From IMG/VR virus record IMGVR_UViG_3300017788_000010: a DNA stretch of 24,715 bases, one strand, 5' to 3'. Made by a program: the position numbers and the translations under genes. The notes under the pieces were generated by a model, which ran no database searches, was not told where the DNA came from, and was given only the letters and a program-made list of their open reading frames with translations. Source of the stretch: a virus. Lineage: Duplodnaviria; Heunggongvirae; Uroviricota; Caudoviricetes. This document shows positions 3,584-13,805 of this stretch, one piece after another (within the stretch, counting starts at the first letter, position 1; each line of letters starts with the position of its first letter).

Positions 3584-3789
3584 TGTATGTTATAATTGAA
3601 CGATCCTGGCTTATTTTTGGGCGGCTTTGACAGCTTATTGGCTATGGAAGAGACTGCGTTGCCTCCCAATGTCATCGCAGCGCCAGAAACGAGGCCGCCT
3701 ATTACCGGCTTAGCTAGAGCACCAACTAAGGGAGCAACTGCTGTTTTTTTCAGCTCTTCTTTAAAGCCTTTGTAAAAATATGATTGCAT
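3580..3789 (-). CDS. Small protein with N-terminal GFKEELKKTA motif
   Basis: ATG preceded by a GGAGA Shine-Dalgarno-like sequence; 4-nt overlap with the next gene. Confidence 0.7.
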   Translation of the reverse strand: MQSYFYKGFKEELKKTAVAPLVGALAKPVIGGLVSGAAMTLGGNAVSSIANKLSKPPKNKPGSFNYNIQ

Positions 3790-3836
3790 CTCTTATCTCC
3801 TATGTCTAATTATACATTTTCCCCACACTCACTCCA

Positions 3837-4241
3837 ATGGACATCCGTAGAATTAGCTACCTAGATAGAAAAAAAGACGCCCACAGGCGGGACTTTACAG
3901 CAAAACTGTACGCATACATAGACCGCTGGCTTGATGCCAGTGCAGAAGTGCTCAAGCTGTGGCACTTAGCTGGCATATTTGACAAGGAGGGCAATCCTGT
4001 AGGCTCGGACAATCCCAACGCCTATTATTTTGGCGTATCAGCGGCAGCGCATCATATAGGAAAGACGTACCCACACCTTAGGAAAGAAAGTGATATACAG
4101 CCGTTATTTAGTTTAAGAGCACACGCCTATCCACACCCCTATGATGTGGATGCAACATTACGTGAGATAGCGTTGCGCGGGAAGCTAAATAAAAAAGACA
4201 TGGCTAATCGAGGCCTGATCCCTAAAAGACCGAATAAATGA
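3837..4241 (+). CDS. Hypothetical protein (134 aa)
   Basis: ORF only; no recognised domain. Confidence 0.55.
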   Translation: MDIRRISYLDRKKDAHRRDFTAKLYAYIDRWLDASAEVLKLWHLAGIFDKEGNPVGSDNPNAYYFGVSAAAHHIGKTYPHLRKESDIQPLFSLRAHAYPHPYDVDATLREIALRGKLNKKDMANRGLIPKRPNK

Positions 4242-4835: not shown

Positions 4836-4840
4836 AAAAC

Positions 4841-4906
4841 AGCCGGCCGTACGACAGCGGGTTAACATTTTCAGGTTTATCCCCGTTGTCACCCTTTTTG
4901 TCGGCA
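4841..4906 (+). ncRNA. Y-RNA-like element Y1 (short form)
   Basis: GCCGGC(4842-4847)CGT pairs with TTT-GTCGGC(4900-4905); inner helix GACAGCGGG/CCCGTTGTC; GTTAAC at +19. Confidence 0.6.
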
Positions 4907-4913
4907 GCAAATG

Positions 4914-4965
4914 TGCGGCCGCCTGAGCATCGCTCTGGCCGCAAAGGTGAGCCCTAACCAGGCAC
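4914..4965 (+). other. Compact pseudoknotted element with HDV-ribozyme-like topology (unassigned)
   Basis: TGCGGCC/GGCCGCA stem; GCCTG in its loop pairs with downstream CAGGC; inner GAGC/GCTC; CTAA precedes the CAGGC strand. Catalytic-core consensus is only partly met. Confidence 0.3.
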
Positions 4966-4980
4966 GCCTTTTTTAGAAAC

Positions 4981-5109
4981 AGCTAGCCGTAAGCTACTCG
5001 TTACCACTCAAAGGTAGTAGTCTGGGTTCGATTCCCGGTGGCCCGACCAACACAGGGCCATAGTGTAATGGATAGCACACTAAAACCGAATAGCTAAATT
5101 TTGCTAGCA
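4981..5109 (+). ncRNA. Y-RNA-like element Y2 with circularly permuted tRNA domain (YrlA-like)
   Basis: Closing helix GCTAGC 4982-4987/5103-5108. T-arm CTGGG-TTCGATT-CCCGG (5022-5038), acceptor stem TGGCCCG/AGGGCCA closed by the loop ACCAACAC, then D-arm GTGT-AATGGATA-GCAC. Order is T, acceptor, D; no anticodon loop. Confidence 0.75.
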
Positions 5110-5112
5110 TCT

Positions 5113-5187
5113 GCGGGTATAACTCAATGGTAGAGTGTCAGCCTTCCAAGCTGAATGTTGAGGGTTCAAGTCCCTCTGTCCGCTCCA
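5113..5187 (+). tRNA. tRNA-Gly (UCC)
   Basis: Full cloverleaf, TCAGC-CTTCCAA-GCTGA, U73, encoded CCA. Confidence 0.93.
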
Positions 5188-5192
5188 TAAAC

Positions 5193-5252
5193 AGCCAGCC
5201 GCCGCTTTTGGGTTACCTTTGTAAAATCACCCATTAGCAACTTTTGCTGGCA
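5193..5252 (+). ncRNA. Y-RNA-like element Y3 (short form)
   Basis: GCCAGC(5194-5199)CG pairs with TTT-GCTGGC(5246-5251); inner GCT/AGC and TGGGT/ACCCA helices; GTTACC at +18. Confidence 0.6.
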
Positions 5253-5254
5253 AT

Positions 5255-5892
5255 TCATCCCGTAGGGAGCAGCGGGCTCCCTAGACCCTACTGTTACGTT
5301 AAGAGAAAACACCTTGCCAGCGTGCGGGTACATAGGGCGCGACTCCCTATACAGTAAGGTCGTTTCACAGAGGTAGCTCAAACAGTAGAGCGACTTCCAT
5401 ATATAGGTTCGCCTGGTTTCAATAGCTGGGCCTATTATAAGGGGAGCTTTGTCGACAAAGTCCCCCCTTATCCGAGGCACGCGTTAAACGCGCTGCTCTA
5501 TCACAGGTCTCCCGGCCTGTCGGTTAGCTGATGTACCATTCGCCCTAAGTAAGCTGTAAAACCCATTGGGCTATGTTGGGGGATTTGCTGGTTTATCCAT
5601 TATTGCTTCCTGAGAGGATAGCATAAAACCAGCTTTACCACAGACGCATCCAGAAAAAGATAAGTAACTAAGCGATACAGCTACTTAATTCGGAGCCTGT
5701 GGGAAGTTATCGCCGGGCCTGGAATAGTTTGGGGGTTTGGACACCCAGAAGCCTGATAAGACCCCTGTGGTTGGCGGATCCGCACAAAACCGCCATTAAA
5801 GAGCATGACAAAAAAGCATTCTTGCACACAAATCATGCGCCGTAAAGTTGCTACGGAAAGCGTCAGAGACGCGGGGCACAGCCCCCTTTTTT
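5255..5892 (+). ncRNA. Unassigned hairpin-dense ~640-nt non-coding region (one large or several small RNAs)
   Basis: No credible ORF. Many helices (5263-5270/5276-5283; 5437-5444/5463-5470; 5587-5594/5626-5633); ends in a GGGGC-ACA-GCCCC hairpin plus a T-run. Confidence 0.4.
5367..5437 (+). pseudogene. Degenerate tRNA-like sequence
   Basis: TA-GCTC-AAACAGTA-GAGC D-arm and a TTCAATA T-loop with a wobble-rich stem, but poor acceptor and anticodon stems and no CCA. Confidence 0.35.
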
Positions 5893-6019: not shown

Positions 6020-6057
6020 GCTTGCTGGAGTAGCTCAGTTGGTAGAGCTTTTGATTT

Positions 6058-6803
6058 GTTAGAATGATTTATTGTCTGCGTATCGTTGTCTTCGGACGTG
6101 TCGCCCAAAACCGCGATTTCTGCCCTTGTATGTAGATAGCTGTGAGTCACAGTTGTGGCATATGAGGCGTAAATTGGTTCTGTTGTTGTCGGTGTAGTCT
6201 CCATTGATATGGTCCAAAACAAAAAACAGTGGCTTGCCGTTCCAATTTCCTGGTTGGGCGCACAAGGCACATTTCTCTAGCTGGTCTTTCAATAACCAGG
6301 AACGGATAACGTCTCTTTGATAAGAAGAGATGCGCGTCTCCTGTCCTAATAACCAGCTGGCGATCTTTGTATCGGCCCTAAGTCTATGGAAGCATTCCAA
6401 ATTACAGAACCTCCGGTTAAGGGTACCTTTTCCGCAACTAAAACAACAAGAATCCTGGCGGAGTCTCGCTCTCTTAGGTTTCTTCCTGTTGTTGTAGCTA
6501 GCGGAGCAAGATCGAGAACAGAACGCGTTCACAGAACGTGCTTTGTCTTTTCGAGAAAACGTTATTTGACACTCAGCGCAGCAATAGGTCATAATACGGA
6601 CCTTTCTAGGGAAACCTATAAAGTGGACGCCGCTAAGTCGGGGAAACCTGTAAAATGGCAATCCCGAGCTAGCAGGTTCCTAAAAGAACCGGGCAAGTGT
6701 AGAGACTTTACACGGCGCACCCTAACGTAAAGCCGAGGGTGAAGAGAAAGTCCATCCCACTAGACTAGTGTAATGTAGTCGAACGAAAGTTCAAAGTGGG
6801 CAG
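6058..6803 (+). mobile_element. Group I self-splicing intron between tRNA positions 34 and 35
   Basis: P (AAGTCGGGGAAA 6635-6646), Q (AATCCCGAGC 6660-6669), R (GTAGAGACTT 6699-6708) and S (GAAGAGAAAGTCC 6741-6753) motifs; P7 GACTT/AAGTC; P3 CGCCG/CGGCG; GAAA-capped P9; terminal G; short P1 with a U34.G wobble. Confidence 0.88.
6059..6592 (-). CDS. HNH homing endonuclease with Cys-rich zinc-binding motifs, antisense within the intron
   Basis: CALC...LDHINGDYTDNNRTNLRLICHNC HNH signature. ATG at 6592 has an AGAAAGG SD and is preferred over the track start at 6661, which lies inside the ribozyme core. Confidence 0.85.
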   Translation of the reverse strand: MTYCCAECQITFSRKDKARSVNAFCSRSCSASYNNRKKPKRARLRQDSCCFSCGKGTLNRRFCNLECFHRLRADTKIASWLLGQETRISSYQRDVIRSWLLKDQLEKCALCAQPGNWNGKPLFFVLDHINGDYTDNNRTNLRLICHNCDSQLSTYKGRNRGFGRHVRRQRYADNKSF

Positions 6804-6849
6804 GTAATCAAAGGGTCATGGGTTCGAGTCCCATCTCCAGCTCCACACG

Positions 6850-6923: not shown

Positions 6924-6932
6924 CCCAACAAT

Positions 6933-7008
6933 AGCTAGCCGTTACCACTCCGTTACCTTTCTCTTCAACAAGAGACCCATGTCACAGGATGGTAAATATT
7001 TGCTAGCA
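6933..7008 (+). ncRNA. Y-RNA-like element Y4 (short form)
   Basis: GCTAGC 6934-6939/7002-7007; inner TTACCA/TGGTAA and TCC/GGA; GTTACC at +18; apical TCTCTT/AAGAGA hairpin. Confidence 0.6.
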
Positions 7009-7010
7009 AT

Positions 7011-7045
7011 TCCCTGGTAGCTCAATGGTAGAGCAGCGCTTGTTA
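7011..7045 (+). pseudogene. Orphan 5' half of a tRNA (Asn-like, GUU)
   Basis: TCCCTGG-TA-GCTC-AATGGTA-GAGC-A-GCGC-TT-GTT-A. The anticodon-stem strand is 1 nt short and no matching 3' half (CCAGGGA) was seen nearby. Confidence 0.5.
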
Positions 7046-7070
7046 TGCCTCCACATATCTGTACATATTT

Positions 7071-7436
7071 GTGTATATGGATACATTAGAAAAGCACATC
7101 ACTAAGACATGTAAACAGCACGGAGAGACGATATACACCTACGTACCGAGTAGGAAACACTACCGCTGTTCACAGTGTCTAGGTGTGGCCGTAACGAAGC
7201 GGCGTCGAAAGCTGAAAGAGCTTGCCGTGGCGTACCTGGGCGGCGCATGCGCTGTCTGTGGGTACAACAAATGCGTAGCCGCTCTAGAGTTTCACCACAG
7301 AGACCCTGTGGCCAAGGACTTTAGCATATCAAGCACGGGTACTACACGATCTTTTGATAAGATTAAAGTAGAGCTGGATAAGTGCTTGCTTCTCTGCGCT
7401 AACTGTCACAGAGAACACCACGCCGGCGTAGAGTAA
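7071..7436 (+). CDS. HNH endonuclease, free-standing
   Basis: CAVCGY...LEFHHRDP...LDKCLLLCANCHREHH signature. Start at 7071 or 7077. Confidence 0.88.
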   Translation: MYMDTLEKHITKTCKQHGETIYTYVPSRKHYRCSQCLGVAVTKRRRKLKELAVAYLGGACAVCGYNKCVAALEFHHRDPVAKDFSISSTGTTRSFDKIKVELDKCLLLCANCHREHHAGVE

Positions 7437-7448
7437 CCCCCCAAAAAC

Positions 7449-7579
7449 AGCCGGCCGTCGATTGTCCGTTACCTTTTCTGAAAAAAAAGAAGTCCTGGGT
7501 TCGAGTCCCAGCGGGTCCGCCTAACGGGCCTGTAGTTTAATGGTTAAAACAATGACTGGACCATCATCCTTTGCCGGCA
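7449..7579 (+). ncRNA. Y-RNA-like element Y5 with circularly permuted tRNA domain (YrlA-like)
   Basis: Closing helix GCCGGC 7450-7455/7573-7578. T-arm CTGGG-TTCGAGT-CCCAG (7495-7511), acceptor stem CGGGTCC/GGGCCTG closed by GCCTAAC, D-arm GTTT-AATGGTTA-AAAC; AGTC/GACT replaces the anticodon stem. Confidence 0.75.
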
Positions 7580-7623
7580 CCTCAAAGTGCGCCCGTAGCT
7601 CAGCTGGATAGAGCATTCGATTT

Positions 7624-8264
7624 TGCAAAGTCGGCTAAACTTGGTATACTATACCAAGCATGCTGACCACTGGGACCTATTTGTGGAAGATTGAGAAGAT
7701 AGTTAGTAAAGGAACCTATAACTACGCTGTGGTACGGAACCACCCAAAAGCAGACAAGCATGGGTACGTTTTGGAGCACCGCGTGGTAGTAGAAAACCAC
7801 CTGAACAGACTTCTCAATTCGGATGAAATTGTGCACCATAAAAATGGGCAGAAGAAAGACAACCGGATCACAAATCTGGAAGTACTAACTACCCTGGCGC
7901 ACAATCGTGAGCACAGTAAAGATGTCGGAAAAAGGTGGGTAACATTAAGGTGCCCAAACTGTTCCGCTCTTTTCGACAAGCCACGTAACCAAACTTTCCT
8001 GGATAAAGGAGGCGAGTCTACATGTTGCTCACGGCGATGCCGTGGTCAATTTAGTGCACGCATTCAGTACCAAGGAAGAACACAAATAGTGGAGGATGCC
8101 ATATCAGGGAATCTCGTACGGGAGTACCGCAAGTACTACCGCGACAACCCTGAGGAAACCGCCTAACTCGGGTTCCGCAGAGACTGTACGCATCCCACCT
8201 GAGACGGTGAAGATACAGTCCAGCCCACAACGCGAAAGCGGTCTACGTAAGTAGTCGTGGGAGG
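7624..8264 (+). mobile_element. Group I self-splicing intron, probably between tRNA positions 34 and 35
   Basis: P (ATATCAGGGAA 8101-8111), Q (AACCCTGAG 8146-8154), R (CAGAGACTG 8178-8186) and S (GAAGATACAGTCC 8209-8221); P7 GACTGT/ACAGTC; P3 5' strand GGATGC at 8094-8099 with a complement just after R; GAAA-capped P9; CCCAC/GTGGG as in the Thr intron. Confidence 0.87.
7660..8166 (+). CDS. Intron-encoded HNH homing endonuclease with C-terminal Cys motifs
   Basis: YVLEHRVV...EIVHHKNGQKKDNRITNLE HNH signature; CPNC and CCSRRC motifs. Confidence 0.88.
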   Translation: MLTTGTYLWKIEKIVSKGTYNYAVVRNHPKADKHGYVLEHRVVVENHLNRLLNSDEIVHHKNGQKKDNRITNLEVLTTLAHNREHSKDVGKRWVTLRCPNCSALFDKPRNQTFLDKGGESTCCSRRCRGQFSARIQYQGRTQIVEDAISGNLVREYRKYYRDNPEETA

Positions 8265-8338
8265 CTAATCGAATGGTCGTAGGTTCAAATCCTACCGGGC
8301 GCACCACCTACCCATGGGGCAATAAACATTATTTTTAC

Positions 8339-10125: not shown

Positions 10126-11697
10126 GTGACAAGATACGGACAACACACTACTTATACACAGAGGGAGCAGGCCCCGGGAACCGTTGCAAACAACGGCGGC
10201 GGCTTCTCCTTCCAATTAGACAAATGGAAACAACTCGATCGCTTTCTGATTTTAGGAAGTGAGGGCGGTACTTATTACGTTGGTGAGCGCAAACTGACCA
10301 GACAAAACGCCACCTGCATAGAGGCGTGCATACAAGAAGATCCGGCAAGGACTGTTCGCAGAATAGAGGAGATCAGCGTAGGTGGAAGAGCTCACAAGAA
10401 CGCGCCCGCCGTGTTCGCTCTCTCGCTGTGCGCCTCCAGCAAAAACCTCGCGGCGAGACAGCTCGCTCTAGAGGCAATGAAGCGGGTATGTCGCACCAGC
10501 ACAGACCTCTTCTCATTTATCGGCGATGTCCAGGAACAGCGTGGTTGGGGCCACTCGTTCAAAAAGGCTGTGTCGCGCTGGTATCTGAGCAAGACTCCTG
10601 AAGCCTTGGCCTATCAGCTGGTCAAATATCGCCAGAGAGAAGGGTGGTCACACAGAGACGCCATACGGCTCTCGCACCCTAAGGCGCATAACATCCCTAT
10701 GAACCACCTACTAGGGTGGGCGGTCGACAAGCACAACGACCTGTCCACGCTTCCGGCGTTGGTGCGGGACTTCACGGATCTGCAGACATGCTCCTCCGTG
10801 AAAGACGCTGTCCGTGTCATACAGCGCAACTCGGCGCTGACCTGGGAAATGGTGCCGACGGAGCTACTGGCGCACAACGCTGTGTGGCGCGCTCTGCTAC
10901 CGAACATGCCGCTGACGGCCATGTTGCGCAATCTCGGAAGAATGACCGCCTACGGTACACTAACCGAACTATCTGACGAAATCGCTACGGTTCGTTCGAA
11001 GATGTTGGATGAGACGTACTTGAAAAAGTCACGCGTGCATCCGATGGCTATTCTGAACGCGTTGCTGGTGTATGGAAAGGGGCACGGTCTCAAAGGCTCG
11101 CTATCCTGGACTCCTCAGCAAGAAATCAAAACAATACTCAATGAGGCGTTCTACCTGTCCTTCAAAACAGTGGAGCCCATCAACAAGAGCGTTATGATAG
11201 CGCTAGACGTTTCTGGTTCTATGGGTACCACCATAGGACAAAACGTTATGAGCTGCAGAGACGCTACGGCGGCGCTATCCCTAGTGACGGCCCGGACAGA
11301 GCCTCGCCATATAATCAAAATGTTCCAAAAAAGTTTGTCCGATTGCCCGATTGTGGCTGGCGATACGCTGGAAACAGCGATTCGTAAGATAAACGGGATA
11401 CCGTTCGGAGCGACAGATTGCGCCTCACCTATCACGTGGGCGACTGCGAACAAGGTGCCTGTCGACCTTTTCGCAATCTACACGGATAACGAGACCAACG
11501 GGTCGTCTATGCACCCTAACAAGGCCCTGGAGAAATACCAGCAGGCCATGGGCAGGGCTGCTAGAATGGTAGTGGTGGGTATGACCTCCACCGGGTTCAC
11601 CATAAGTGATCCGAACAATCCCAACTGTTTGGACGTTGTGGGGTTCGATACCGACACACCGAACCTGATCTCGGCCTTCGGGCGCGGCGAGATCTGA
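10126..11697 (+). CDS. rsr: Ro60 / Rsr ribonucleoprotein (TROVE domain plus vWA domain)
   Basis: N..GGFSF...LDRFLILGSEGGTYY, KYRQREGWSHRD, MPLTAMLRNLGRMT, HPMAILNA and vWA MIDAS motif DVSGSM ... TDNET: the full Ro60 signature set. Confidence 0.95.
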   Translation: MTRYGQHTTYTQREQAPGTVANNGGGFSFQLDKWKQLDRFLILGSEGGTYYVGERKLTRQNATCIEACIQEDPARTVRRIEEISVGGRAHKNAPAVFALSLCASSKNLAARQLALEAMKRVCRTSTDLFSFIGDVQEQRGWGHSFKKAVSRWYLSKTPEALAYQLVKYRQREGWSHRDAIRLSHPKAHNIPMNHLLGWAVDKHNDLSTLPALVRDFTDLQTCSSVKDAVRVIQRNSALTWEMVPTELLAHNAVWRALLPNMPLTAMLRNLGRMTAYGTLTELSDEIATVRSKMLDETYLKKSRVHPMAILNALLVYGKGHGLKGSLSWTPQQEIKTILNEAFYLSFKTVEPINKSVMIALDVSGSMGTTIGQNVMSCRDATAALSLVTARTEPRHIIKMFQKSLSDCPIVAGDTLETAIRKINGIPFGATDCASPITWATANKVPVDLFAIYTDNETNGSSMHPNKALEKYQQAMGRAARMVVVGMTSTGFTISDPNNPNCLDVVGFDTDTPNLISAFGRGEI

Positions 11698-13474: not shown

Positions 13475-13805
13475 TGACCCTTGCATTGTGGGCAGGCCGG
13501 CCTGTGCGGGGTCATATGTTGGGGGAGGTGGTCGACCGAAAGCGGCGACCTCCCCCATTTGCGTACTTCTACGTGGGCTAGGCCACGATAAACAGGTCTT
13601 TAAGCCTAGCGCGTTGAAAAGGTAGACGAGCCTTAGTATCTTTGCGACTAGTCACCGCTCTGATGCAAACGGCCCCGGAAGTTCTTATCCTGCTATAGAT
13701 CTTCTGAAAAAAAAAGCAGACAGCAGCGAGCTGTGGAAGAGCCGGGCACGGCTCTAGCACACAAAAGGCGGTGGGGGTTGCGCAACTCCCACCGCTTCTT
13801 TTTTT
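13475..13805 (+). ncRNA. Unassigned ~330-nt structured non-coding transcript
   Basis: Lies between a promoter motif and a terminator, has no credible ORF and contains several strong hairpins. Confidence 0.45.
13768..13805 (+). terminator. Intrinsic terminator
   Basis: GCGGTGGGGG/CTCCCACCGC stem plus TTCTTTTTT. Confidence 0.75.

What the first reader, a model, noticed from the sequence alone, without database searches (positions are those of the whole stretch)
4981..5109. Y2: circularly permuted tRNA mimic with ACCA hidden in the acceptor-stem loop
Seen: the tRNA 3' half (T-arm, TGGCCCG, A, CCA at 5047-5049) precedes the 5' half (AGGGCCA, TA, D-arm), joined by only ACAC. The anticodon arm is replaced by the long stem leading to the Ro-type helix. 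Established: this T-acceptor-D order is the YrlA architecture. Inference: one cut in the loop would expose a mature-looking ACCA 3' end, giving a two-piece anticodon-less tRNA mimic that could engage synthetases, EF-Tu or tRNA-sensing defence proteins.
Basis: partly seen in the sequence, partly recalled or inferred. Interest (0 to 1): 0.8.

Follow-up and report, generated by a model that had tools for sequence, protein, structure and literature searches.

The report
Phage YrlA-type Y RNA with encoded CCA
This is a phage copy of a known small RNA (YrlA, the tRNA-shaped partner of the Ro60 protein). Its only unusual feature is a ready-made tRNA tail (ACCA) written into the loop that closes its acceptor stem, which suggests it is cut open like a tRNA precursor.

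Summary
Window 4976-5112 (+) holds T arm, acceptor 3' strand, ACCA, four bases, acceptor 5' strand, U8-A9 and D arm, closed by a long stem and a Ro-type helix. It is a YrlA-class Y RNA. A covariance model built only from Ro60-adjacent RNAs of other loci scores it at 61 bits (E 5e-15). Rfam YrlA matches it full length but weakly (26 bits). Four relatives show 14 pairs with compensatory changes, and a Ro60/Rsr gene lies 5 kb downstream on the same strand.

The "permuted tRNA mimic" idea and the loop-opened, CCA-ended two-piece form are already published (Chen 2014; Wang 2018, M. smegmatis YrlA). What is new here is small: the CCA is genomically encoded. My survey found this in about 15% of YrlA-like modules. 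It occurs almost only where neighbouring tRNA genes also encode CCA (90/96 versus 35/165). That fits tRNA-like end processing, but descent from local tRNA genes is not excluded.

Opening would need RNase P plus 3' trimming, not one cut, and pair 1:72 is a mismatch. No expression or processing data could be obtained. This scan has already noted similar RNAs on other DNA. It is a new member of a known kind, of modest interest.

The parts
4976..4981 (+). conserved A-rich 5' lead-in shared by all five Y-like elements of the window
   Evidence: alignments A1, A2, A4
4982..4990 (+). 5' strand of the terminal (Ro-type) helix, bulged C4988, G4989 (pairs with U5102). It overlaps the Rsr-motif-like octamer 4986-4993.
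   Evidence: Helix 1 is 100% paired in 4 sequences, with 3 pairs changed on both sides. Same layout as the family consensus in A5.
4992..5000 (+). 5' strand of the long stem that stands in for the anticodon stem
   Evidence: helix 2 has 7 of 9 pairs changed on both sides among 4 relatives
5001..5017 (+). variable-arm hairpin (V), beginning with the YUAY/GUUACC motif at 5000-5005
   Evidence: The motif is invariant in all Y elements and in 67 other loci. The V arm is described in Chen 2014.
5022..5038 (+). T arm (5 bp, 7-nt T-loop); U5021 is the Levitt partner (U48) of A15 (5068)
5039..5045 (+). acceptor-stem 3' strand (positions 66-72)
   Evidence: helix 5
5046..5049 (+). encoded discriminator A73 plus CCA (74-76), inside the acceptor loop
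   Evidence: CC is invariant and A76 is present in 3 of 4 relatives. CCA in this register is enriched family-wide.
5050..5053 (+). four-base spacer (ACAC): it would be 3' trailer and 5' leader at once
   Evidence: variable among relatives
5054..5060 (+). acceptor-stem 5' strand (positions 1-7); A5054 is mismatched with G5045
5061..5078 (+). U8-A9 and the D arm
5087..5095 (+). 3' strand of the long stem
5102..5108 (+). 3' strand of the terminal Ro-type helix
5113..5187 (+). tRNA-Gly (UCC) with encoded CCA, starting 4 nt after the Y RNA helix. Its RNase P site would define the Y RNA 3' end.
10126..11697 (+). Ro60/Rsr gene (TROVE plus vWA_Ro60 domains), the presumed protein partner
7445..7588 (+). 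second YrlA-type RNA of the window (Y5); acceptor loop has GCC-U, and G3.U70 is present
   Evidence: 79.5 bits

Best explanation
Window 4976-5112 encodes a YrlA-class Y RNA of a phage-like element.

1. It is transcribed within a tRNA/Y-RNA array. tRNA-processing enzymes probably free it: RNase P at the tRNA-Gly that starts 4 nt downstream would set its 3' end.
2. Its terminal bulged helix docks the element's own Ro60/Rsr protein.
3. The rest folds as a tRNA L-shape (T arm, acceptor stem, D arm, variable arm), with the anticodon arm replaced by the stem that leads to the Ro helix.
4. The acceptor stem has tRNA length and is followed by an encoded A-CCA. The most likely fate of the loop is therefore tRNA-type end maturation. 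RNase P would cut before 5054, then 3' exonucleases would remove the four-base trailer back to CCA.
5. This would give a nicked, two-piece Y RNA with a tRNA-like CCA end that stays base-paired and Rsr-bound, as shown for M. smegmatis YrlA.

Shown here: the family membership, the fold and the neighbouring Rsr gene. Inferred: Rsr binding, the cleavage and any role of the CCA end.

My sub-confidences are: YrlA member 0.93; opened in vivo about 0.5; aminoacylated 0.1 or less.
For: - Architecture in the sequence and in the MFE fold.
- Rsr gene on the same strand.
- Rfam YrlA matches full length at 26.3 bits, E 5e-4.
- Covariance model R1, built from 67 Rsr-adjacent modules of other loci, scores Y2 at 61.4 bits, E 5e-15, full length. 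As a positive control it also recovers the published mycobacteriophage ET08 YrlA at 84.7 bits.
- Orthologue in L001:767-910 and a paralogue pair: 93.9% of cells paired, 14 pairs with compensatory changes, 0 of 500 shuffles as good.
- CC of the CCA is invariant and A76 is kept in 3 of 4 relatives, while the rest of the loop varies.
- CCA at positions 74-76 is the commonest triplet among 101 unique YrlA-like modules: 15 observed against 2.3 expected, and 8 of 57 in the Rsr-selected set.
- NCCA-type modules are confirmed as full-length YrlA by eye and by R1.
- NCCA-type modules occur where neighbouring tRNA genes encode CCA: 90/96 against 35/165 genes; by locus 11/11 against 3/16, Fisher p = 3e-5.
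- All four tRNA genes of the window encode CCA.
- The two halves co-fold at -42.9 kcal/mol, against -25.5 when separate.
- Precedent for RNase P cleavage, nibbling and a CCA end: Chen 2014 and Wang 2018.
Against: - No transcript, end-mapping or binding data could be obtained.
- Pair 1:72 is an A.G mismatch, so only six Watson-Crick pairs remain. S. Typhimurium YrlA, with a 6-bp stem, is not cut by RNase P.
- Only four bases join A76 to position +1, which may hinder RNase P docking.
- The Rfam score is far below the gathering threshold of 69 bits.
- The 5' motif differs from GNCGAAN0-1G at one position.
- The Rsr gene is 5.0 kb away, slightly beyond the 4 kb typical in Chen 2014.
- A terminator-like hairpin with a U-run sits just upstream of Y2, so expression may depend on read-through.
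- The link between YrlA CCA and tRNA-gene CCA could reflect descent from, or gene conversion with, local tRNA genes rather than function.
- The NCCA cases are not all phylogenetically independent: six come from one verrucomicrobial-labelled group.
Confidence: 0.55

Rival explanations
1. It is a closed-loop YrlA. The RNA is a YrlA, but the acceptor loop is never opened. The ACCA is a relic of origin from, or gene conversion with, a CCA-encoding tRNA gene. A tandem tRNA duplicate gives T arm, acceptor, CCA, spacer, acceptor, D arm directly.
For: - There are six Watson-Crick pairs plus a mismatch, as in uncleaved S. Typhimurium YrlA.
- Wang 2018 holds that most YrlAs keep closed loops.
- NCCA tracks CCA-encoding tRNA genes in the same locus, as shared ancestry would predict.
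- The paralogue Y5 has lost A76.
Against: - CC/CCA is kept between orthologues whose other loop bases and stem sequences have diverged.
- In the verrucomicrobial-labelled group, CCA stays while the discriminator and the three following bases vary.
- T and D arms are near-invariant across the family. This argues for one origin rather than repeated births, so NCCA in several lineages implies retention.
- The L001 orthologue has a full 7-bp stem.
Confidence: 0.35
2. It is a non-functional remnant of two adjacent tRNA genes (3' half of one, 5' half of the next), with no role as an RNA.
For: Dimeric tRNAs can mimic the T/D order. R1 also scores the tRNA-Thr 3' half plus tRNA-Lys at 37 bits. The window holds broken tRNA genes.
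Against: - The two acceptor strands are complementary to each other.
- The flanking long stem and terminal helix covary.
- The 5' motif, the GUUACC motif and the V arm match the Rsr-adjacent family.
- An orthologue is conserved at 70% Rsr identity.
Confidence: 0.03
3. It is a circularly permuted tRNA gene (as in Cyanidioschyzon) that yields a decoding tRNA after circularisation and opening of the acceptor loop.
For: The gene order is the same (3' half before 5' half). Wang 2018 raises the formal possibility.
Against: - Joining the ends gives an interrupted stem of about 14 bp ending in the Ro helix, with no 5-bp stem and 7-nt anticodon loop.
- ARAGORN calls no tRNA here.
- Wang 2018 notes that no bacterial equivalent of the splicing endonuclease has been reported.
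Confidence: 0.01
4. It is the acceptor piece of a two-piece (permuted) tmRNA-like RNA acting in ribosome rescue.
For: Weak local matches of T arm plus acceptor plus ACCA to permuted and cyanobacterial tmRNA models, at 12-15 bits.
Against: - The scores are far below gathering (47-70 bits) and cover only the tRNA-like part.
- There is no tag reading frame and there are no pseudoknots.
- ARAGORN finds no tmRNA.
- There is no G3.U70 in Y2.
Confidence: 0.01

Closest known systems
YrlA of Salmonella Typhimurium (Rfam RF02553; Chen 2014 PMC4201824; structure in Wang 2018, 10.1101/312249)
   Same: Rsr-linked. It has a 5' Rsr motif and terminal helix, YUAY/V region, T arm, acceptor hairpin and D arm, with the anticodon arm replaced by the stem to the Ro site. 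It forms a tRNA-like L-shape.
   Different: The Salmonella stem has 6 bp, is closed by a small loop and is not cut by RNase P. Y2 has a seven-position stem, a 10-nt loop with encoded ACCA, a longer V hairpin and a different terminal-helix sequence. Y2 scores only 26 bits against the Rfam model.
YrlA of Mycobacterium smegmatis (Chen 2014)
   Same: tRNA-length acceptor stem. Its loop is opened by RNase P in vivo and in vitro. The 5' half ends in CCA, and both halves stay with Rsr.
   Different: In M. smegmatis CA is added after cleavage and nibbling. Here the whole CCA is encoded and is followed by a four-base spacer. Cleavage is not shown for Y2.
Actinophage YrlAs (for example Mycobacterium phage ET08, Gordonia phage Cashline, Streptomyces phage Gilson)
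   Same: Phage-encoded, just upstream of a Ro-like gene, often among tRNA genes. My model R1 recovers them at 78-93 bits.
   Different: Their acceptor hairpins carry closed loops without an in-register CCA. Y2 lies 5 kb from Rsr in an array of five Y-like RNAs.
Thermus phage phiLo Ro60 with Yrl1/Yrl2 (PMC12135203)
   Same: A phage Ro60 bound to phage-encoded Y-like RNAs. They form a complex with host PNPase, which suggests what such a particle may do.
   Different: No tRNA-like domain or CCA is described for Yrl1/Yrl2 in the text I searched.
Two-piece (circularly permuted) tmRNA
   Same: T arm, acceptor 3' strand and CCA precede the acceptor 5' strand in the gene. An intervening segment is removed to give a CCA-ended two-piece RNA.
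   Different: tmRNA has a tag reading frame, pseudoknots and G3.U70. Y2 has none of these.

Membership tests
YrlA-class Y RNA (Chen 2014; Rfam RF02553) | Encoded near a Ro60/Rsr gene on the same strand (within about 4 kb in Chen 2014) | tested here: met
   Rsr is at 10126-11697 (+), 5.0 kb downstream on the same strand. This is slightly beyond 4 kb. Other Y-like RNAs lie in between.
YrlA-class Y RNA (Chen 2014; Rfam RF02553) | 5' Rsr-binding motif GNCGAAN0-1G and a terminal bulged helix | tested here: inconclusive
   The octamer at 4986-4993 fits the motif except for U in place of the first A. The helix, bulged C and G.U are present and covary, and they match the layout of the consensus of 67 other loci. 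Binding was not tested.
YrlA-class Y RNA (Chen 2014; Rfam RF02553) | YUAY motif opening a variable (V) stem-loop upstream of the T arm | tested here: met
   UUAC at 5001-5004 opens a 5-bp hairpin at 5001-5017. The motif is invariant in relatives.
YrlA-class Y RNA (Chen 2014; Rfam RF02553) | Conserved T and D stem-loops with an acceptor-like hairpin between them, and tRNA tertiary-pair nucleotides available | tested here: met
   T arm 5022-5038, acceptor stem 5039-5060, D arm 5063-5078. U8, A14, A15/U48, G18, G19, U54, U55, C56 and A58 are all present. Covariation is shown.
YrlA-class Y RNA (Chen 2014; Rfam RF02553) | Reaches the Rfam RF02553 gathering score | tested here: not met
   26.3 bits against 69. 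The match is full length at E 5e-4, seen only when the 151-nt stretch is searched alone. It is absent at gathering. None of 13 other Rsr loci reached it either, so the threshold is narrow.
YrlA-class Y RNA (Chen 2014; Rfam RF02553) | Significant full-length match to a covariance model of Rsr-adjacent YrlA modules | tested here: met
   R1 was built without window or L001 sequences. It scores Y2 at 61.4 bits, E 5e-15, model positions 1-147. The control, phage ET08 YrlA, scores 84.7 bits.
YrlA-class Y RNA (Chen 2014; Rfam RF02553) | Bound by Rsr; carries pseudouridine 55 and dihydrouridine | not testable with these tools
   Needs immunoprecipitation and modification mapping.
RNase P-opened, CCA-ended two-piece YrlA (M. 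smegmatis type) | Seven-base-pair acceptor stem | tested here: inconclusive
   There are seven positions, but 1:72 is A.G, leaving six Watson-Crick pairs. The L001 orthologue has seven pairs.
RNase P-opened, CCA-ended two-piece YrlA (M. smegmatis type) | Cleavage at position +1 in vivo or in vitro, and a CCA 3' end on the 5' half | not testable with these tools
   The CCA is encoded in register at 5047-5049.
Circularly permuted tRNA gene | Joining the ends restores an anticodon stem-loop | tested here: not met
   The ends form an interrupted stem of about 14 bp that runs into the Ro-type helix. ARAGORN calls no tRNA.
Two-piece tmRNA | Tag reading frame, pseudoknots, G3.U70 | tested here: not met
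   ARAGORN finds no tmRNA. Rfam tmRNA models score 12-15 bits on the T/acceptor part only. Pair 3:70 is G-C.

The most novel reading that the evidence does not exclude
The encoded-NCCA YrlAs would be a distinct functional subclass. They are always opened to present a true tRNA 3' end, and that end is used.

The end could be charged. The sister RNA Y5 and its orthologue carry G3.U70, and the orthologue also has A73, which is the AlaRS identity set. Alternatively, the end could be recognised by EF-Tu, the CCA-adding or repair machinery, or tRNA-targeting defence or toxin proteins.

In this reading a phage Ro60 particle would carry a tRNA-end decoy or tether. More broadly, the YrlA acceptor end would follow the host's tRNA 3'-maturation regime because it is matured as a tRNA.
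Probability: 0.12. Interest if true: 0.7.

Novelty: new member of a known kind. Interest (0 to 1): 0.33.

Why it matters
It adds a phage locus to the Ro60/Y RNA family: five Y-like RNAs interleaved with tRNA genes.

It also points to a feature that I did not find in the papers I could search. About one in seven YrlA-like modules carries a genomically encoded NCCA exactly where a tRNA 3' end would be. These modules occur almost only in genomes whose tRNA genes also encode CCA.

If this reflects processing, the loop-opened, CCA-ended form known from one mycobacterium may be a regular state of many Y RNAs. That would narrow the search for what the tRNA-like module binds.

If it only reflects ancestry, it says how these RNAs arose: from tandem tRNA genes. 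Either way, the RNA itself is an ordinary family member.

Tried and rejected
- No whole genome is held for the window.
- A single-protein scan of viral contigs with Rsr found nothing.
- An exact 25-mer of the T arm plus acceptor found nothing.
- A first DNA pattern (terminal helix plus T-loop) gave only chance hits without YrlA architecture.
- Nucleotide search of the phage collection matched only the tRNAs.
- Rfam at gathering gave no Y RNA in the window or in 13 Rsr loci. At E<=10 over 1.7 kb it still missed Y2. The match appeared only when 151 nt were searched alone.
- Two reviews on bacterial Y RNAs and the supplements of Chen 2014 are not held. I therefore cannot say whether encoded CCA was tabulated there.
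- The HD-domain gene next to Rsr was checked as a possible CCA-enzyme fragment. It has only a weak HD_4 match, so this was rejected.
- Permuted-tRNA-gene, tmRNA and tandem-tRNA-remnant readings were rejected (see rivals).
- One NCCA candidate (L251:12153-12250) matched the model only partially and may be tandem tRNAs. I treat it as doubtful.

Full report
**What is there.** Read on the + strand, window 4976-5112 contains these elements in order:
- an A-rich lead-in;
- a 6-bp terminal helix (4982-4987 with 5103-5108), followed by a bulged C4988 and a G4989.U5102 pair;
- a 9-position stem (4992-5000 with 5087-5095);
- a hairpin at 5001-5017 that begins with the GUUACC/YUAY motif;
- a T arm at 5022-5038 with a consensus T-loop;
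- seven bases that pair with 5054-5060;
- between those two strands, A5046, CCA 5047-5049 and ACAC 5050-5053;
- U8-A9 at 5061-5062;
- a D arm at 5063-5078 with A14, A15, G18, G19 and A21.

Two details were missed. Pair 1:72 (A5054.G5045) is a mismatch, and there is a variable-arm hairpin. The minimum-free-energy fold gives this same architecture (-41.4 kcal/mol, z -2.8). ARAGORN and Rfam at gathering call no tRNA, tmRNA or Y RNA here.

**Context.** The RNA sits in an array on the + strand. The order is tRNA-Met, a Y-like RNA, Y2, tRNA-Gly (starting 4 nt after Y2's helix), a short Y-like RNA and a 640-nt non-coding block. After that come tRNAs interrupted by group I introns or HNH genes, two more Y-like RNAs, and a Ro60/Rsr gene at 10126-11697 (TROVE plus vWA_Ro60).
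- All five Y-like elements share the lead-in, the helix-C-G start, the GUUACC-like motif and the U-rich run before the closing strand.
- HNH endonucleases, intron-split tRNAs and PHROG hits indicate a phage or similar mobile element. No genome is held.
- The nearest relative is a Logan contig (L001) whose Rsr is 70% identical and which has the same neighbouring genes.

**Family membership.**
- Chen et al. 2014 define YrlA by the 5' Rsr motif, the YUAY/V region, near-invariant T and D stem-loops with an acceptor-like hairpin between them, and linkage to Rsr on the same strand. Y2 has all of these, with one substitution in the 5' motif.
- Rfam YrlA (RF02553) aligns to 4980-5113 over its full length. 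The score is only 26.3 bits (gathering 69), E 5e-4, and the match appears only when the stretch is searched alone.
- For an independent test I collected Rsr loci chosen by the protein alone: 80 viral and 80 bacterial. I found T/acceptor/D modules in them with a structural scan masked for ARAGORN tRNAs. I aligned 67 of these and built model R1.
- R1, which contains nothing from the window or L001, scores Y2 at 61.4 bits (E 5e-15, full length). It scores the second YrlA-type RNA, Y5, at 79.5 bits, and their L001 counterparts at 49.7 and 72.1 bits.
- As a control, R1 finds the published mycobacteriophage ET08 YrlA at 84.7 bits, just upstream of its Ro gene.
- On the four-sequence alignment, 93.9% of cells pair, against 36-46% when the partners are slid. 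Fourteen of 37 pairs change on both sides, including 7 of 9 in the long stem and 3 in the terminal helix. No shuffle does as well.

I put membership at about 0.93.

**What is already known.**
- The T-acceptor-D order, the phrase 'circularly permuted tRNA', and the L-shaped fold are in Chen 2014 and Wang 2018.
M. smegmatis YrlA, which has a 7-bp acceptor stem, is found in vivo as two Rsr-bound halves. The 3' half starts exactly at the RNase P site. The 5' half is nibbled and ends in CCA, with CA added. M1 RNA cuts the transcript in vitro. The 6-bp Salmonella RNA is not cut.

**What is particular here: the encoded CCA.**
- In Y2 the CCA sits exactly at positions 74-76 after a discriminator A.
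- The L001 orthologue (767-910) has a full 7-bp stem followed by G-CCA and four different bases.
- The paralogue pair has A-CCA plus four bases in L001, and G-CC-U in window Y5.
- Among 101 unique YrlA-like modules with loops of 4-13 nt, CCA is the commonest triplet at 74-76. I counted 15, against 2.3 expected from shuffled loops. In the Rsr-selected set alone the count is 8 of 57, against 1.4.
- The cases I inspected are complete YrlAs. R1 matches those outside its training set at full length, 65-94 bits. One doubtful case (L251) matches only partially.
- Spacers after the CCA are short, 0-5 nt. One viral RNA (L186) has ACCA as the entire loop, so a single RNase P cut would make both mature ends.
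- The named actinophage YrlAs lack the motif.

**A correlation.**
- In loci with an NCCA-type YrlA, 90 of 96 neighbouring tRNA genes encode CCA.
- In loci with only other YrlAs, 35 of 165 do. By locus this is 11/11 against 3/16, Fisher p = 3e-5.
- Two of the three exceptions carry near-NCCA loops.
- All four tRNA genes of the window encode CCA.
- Caveat: six NCCA loci belong to one related group, so I count roughly five to seven independent lineages.

There are two readings of the correlation:
- The acceptor end of these RNAs is matured by the same route as the resident tRNAs, so it must be encoded where tRNA CCA is encoded. M. smegmatis, where CA is added, fits this.
- The modules descend from local tRNA genes, or exchange sequence with them. 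A tandem tRNA duplicate would produce exactly this order, with CCA and a spacer in the loop.

Three points favour selection: CCA is retained while neighbouring loop bases and stem sequences diverge; T and D arms are near-invariant across the family; and typically only one module per array carries NCCA while its neighbours have stable tetraloops. They do not exclude ancestry.

**Likely mechanism for Y2.** The steps below are inferred.
1. RNase P at tRNA-Gly frees the 3' end.
2. Rsr binds the terminal helix.
3. RNase P cuts between 5053 and 5054.
4. 3' exonucleases trim ACAC back to CCA. From my own knowledge, this is the usual route for CCA-encoding precursors, which are poor RNase Z substrates.

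So two steps are needed, not one cut. The nicked RNA should hold together: the halves co-fold at -42.9 kcal/mol, against -25.5 when apart.

Four points argue against cleavage: the 1:72 mismatch, the short tether between A76 and position +1, a terminator-like hairpin with a U-run directly upstream of Y2, and the complete lack of expression data. I put opening at about 0.5.

Chen 2014 suggests the CCA end may protect the cut RNA from exonucleases. Work on a Thermus phage suggests that phage Ro60/Y RNPs recruit host PNPase. Charging of Y2 is unlikely to be predictable. It has G3-C70 and carries no recognised anticodon-independent identity set. The sister RNA Y5 does carry G3.U70.

**Verdict.** Y2 is a new member of the YrlA family. 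The encoded CCA and its link to CCA-encoding tRNA genes are a modest lead that can be tested.

Noticed in passing
window 7445-7588 and L001:2096-2237: The second YrlA-type RNA (Y5) and its orthologue have G3.U70 in the acceptor stem. The L001 copy also has A73-CCA, which together make the classical tRNA-Ala/tmRNA identity set. Window Y5 has G-CC-U instead of a full CCA.
   Followed up: partly
window 4838-4913, 5189-5261, 6929-7011: Three shorter Y-like RNAs share the lead-in, terminal helix and GUUAMC motif but lack the tRNA-like module (YrlB-like). R1 aligns 5189-5261 at 22 bits with the middle deleted. L001 has counterparts at about 61-130, 131-204 and 1938-2018.
   Followed up: partly
window 6024-6846: tRNA-Thr(UGU)-like gene split by a group I intron (Rfam 6580-6772, 54 bits). 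There is a D arm at 6031-6048 and a T arm at 6816-6836. L001 has the uninterrupted gene at 1537-1612.
   Followed up: partly
window 7012-7440: The 5' half of a tRNA-Asn is followed by an HNH endonuclease ORF (7071-7436). No 3' half was found. L001 has an intact tRNA-Asn at 2020-2094.
   Followed up: partly
window 7589-8310: A tRNA 5' half at 7589-7625 and a T-loop motif at 8282-8292 flank an HNH ORF (7660-8166). This is probably an intron-split tRNA. Rfam calls no intron here.
   Followed up: no
window 5255-5892 and L001:200-520: An ORF-poor block of about 640 nt is conserved between the two relatives and ends in a terminator (5873-5885). It has no Rfam family. A motif at about 5302 recurs at about 4641 in the 300-nt RNA-like stretch that heads the array.
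   Followed up: no
window 13572-13627 and L001:7844-7905: A Pistol ribozyme match above gathering is present in both relatives (46.5 and 45.8 bits).
   Followed up: no
window 4948-4974: An imperfect GC-rich hairpin followed by six U lies between Y1 and Y2, and could be a leaky terminator. The L001 orthologue of Y2 is instead preceded by a terminator and an ATAAGAT-type promoter-like motif.
   Followed up: no
L340, L329, L319, L300, L321 (contigs labelled Verrucomicrobiota MAGs): These Rsr loci have 5-20 CCA-encoding tRNA genes and tandem arrays of three or four YrlA modules. The first module carries NCCA and the others have closed loops. The tRNA load suggests phage-derived DNA binned into MAGs.
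   Followed up: partly
L343 (Mycobacterium phage ET08) 3682-3836: The known YrlA overlaps the annotated 'hypothetical protein gp219' (locus 3785-3958). The RNA is not annotated in the record.
   Followed up: no
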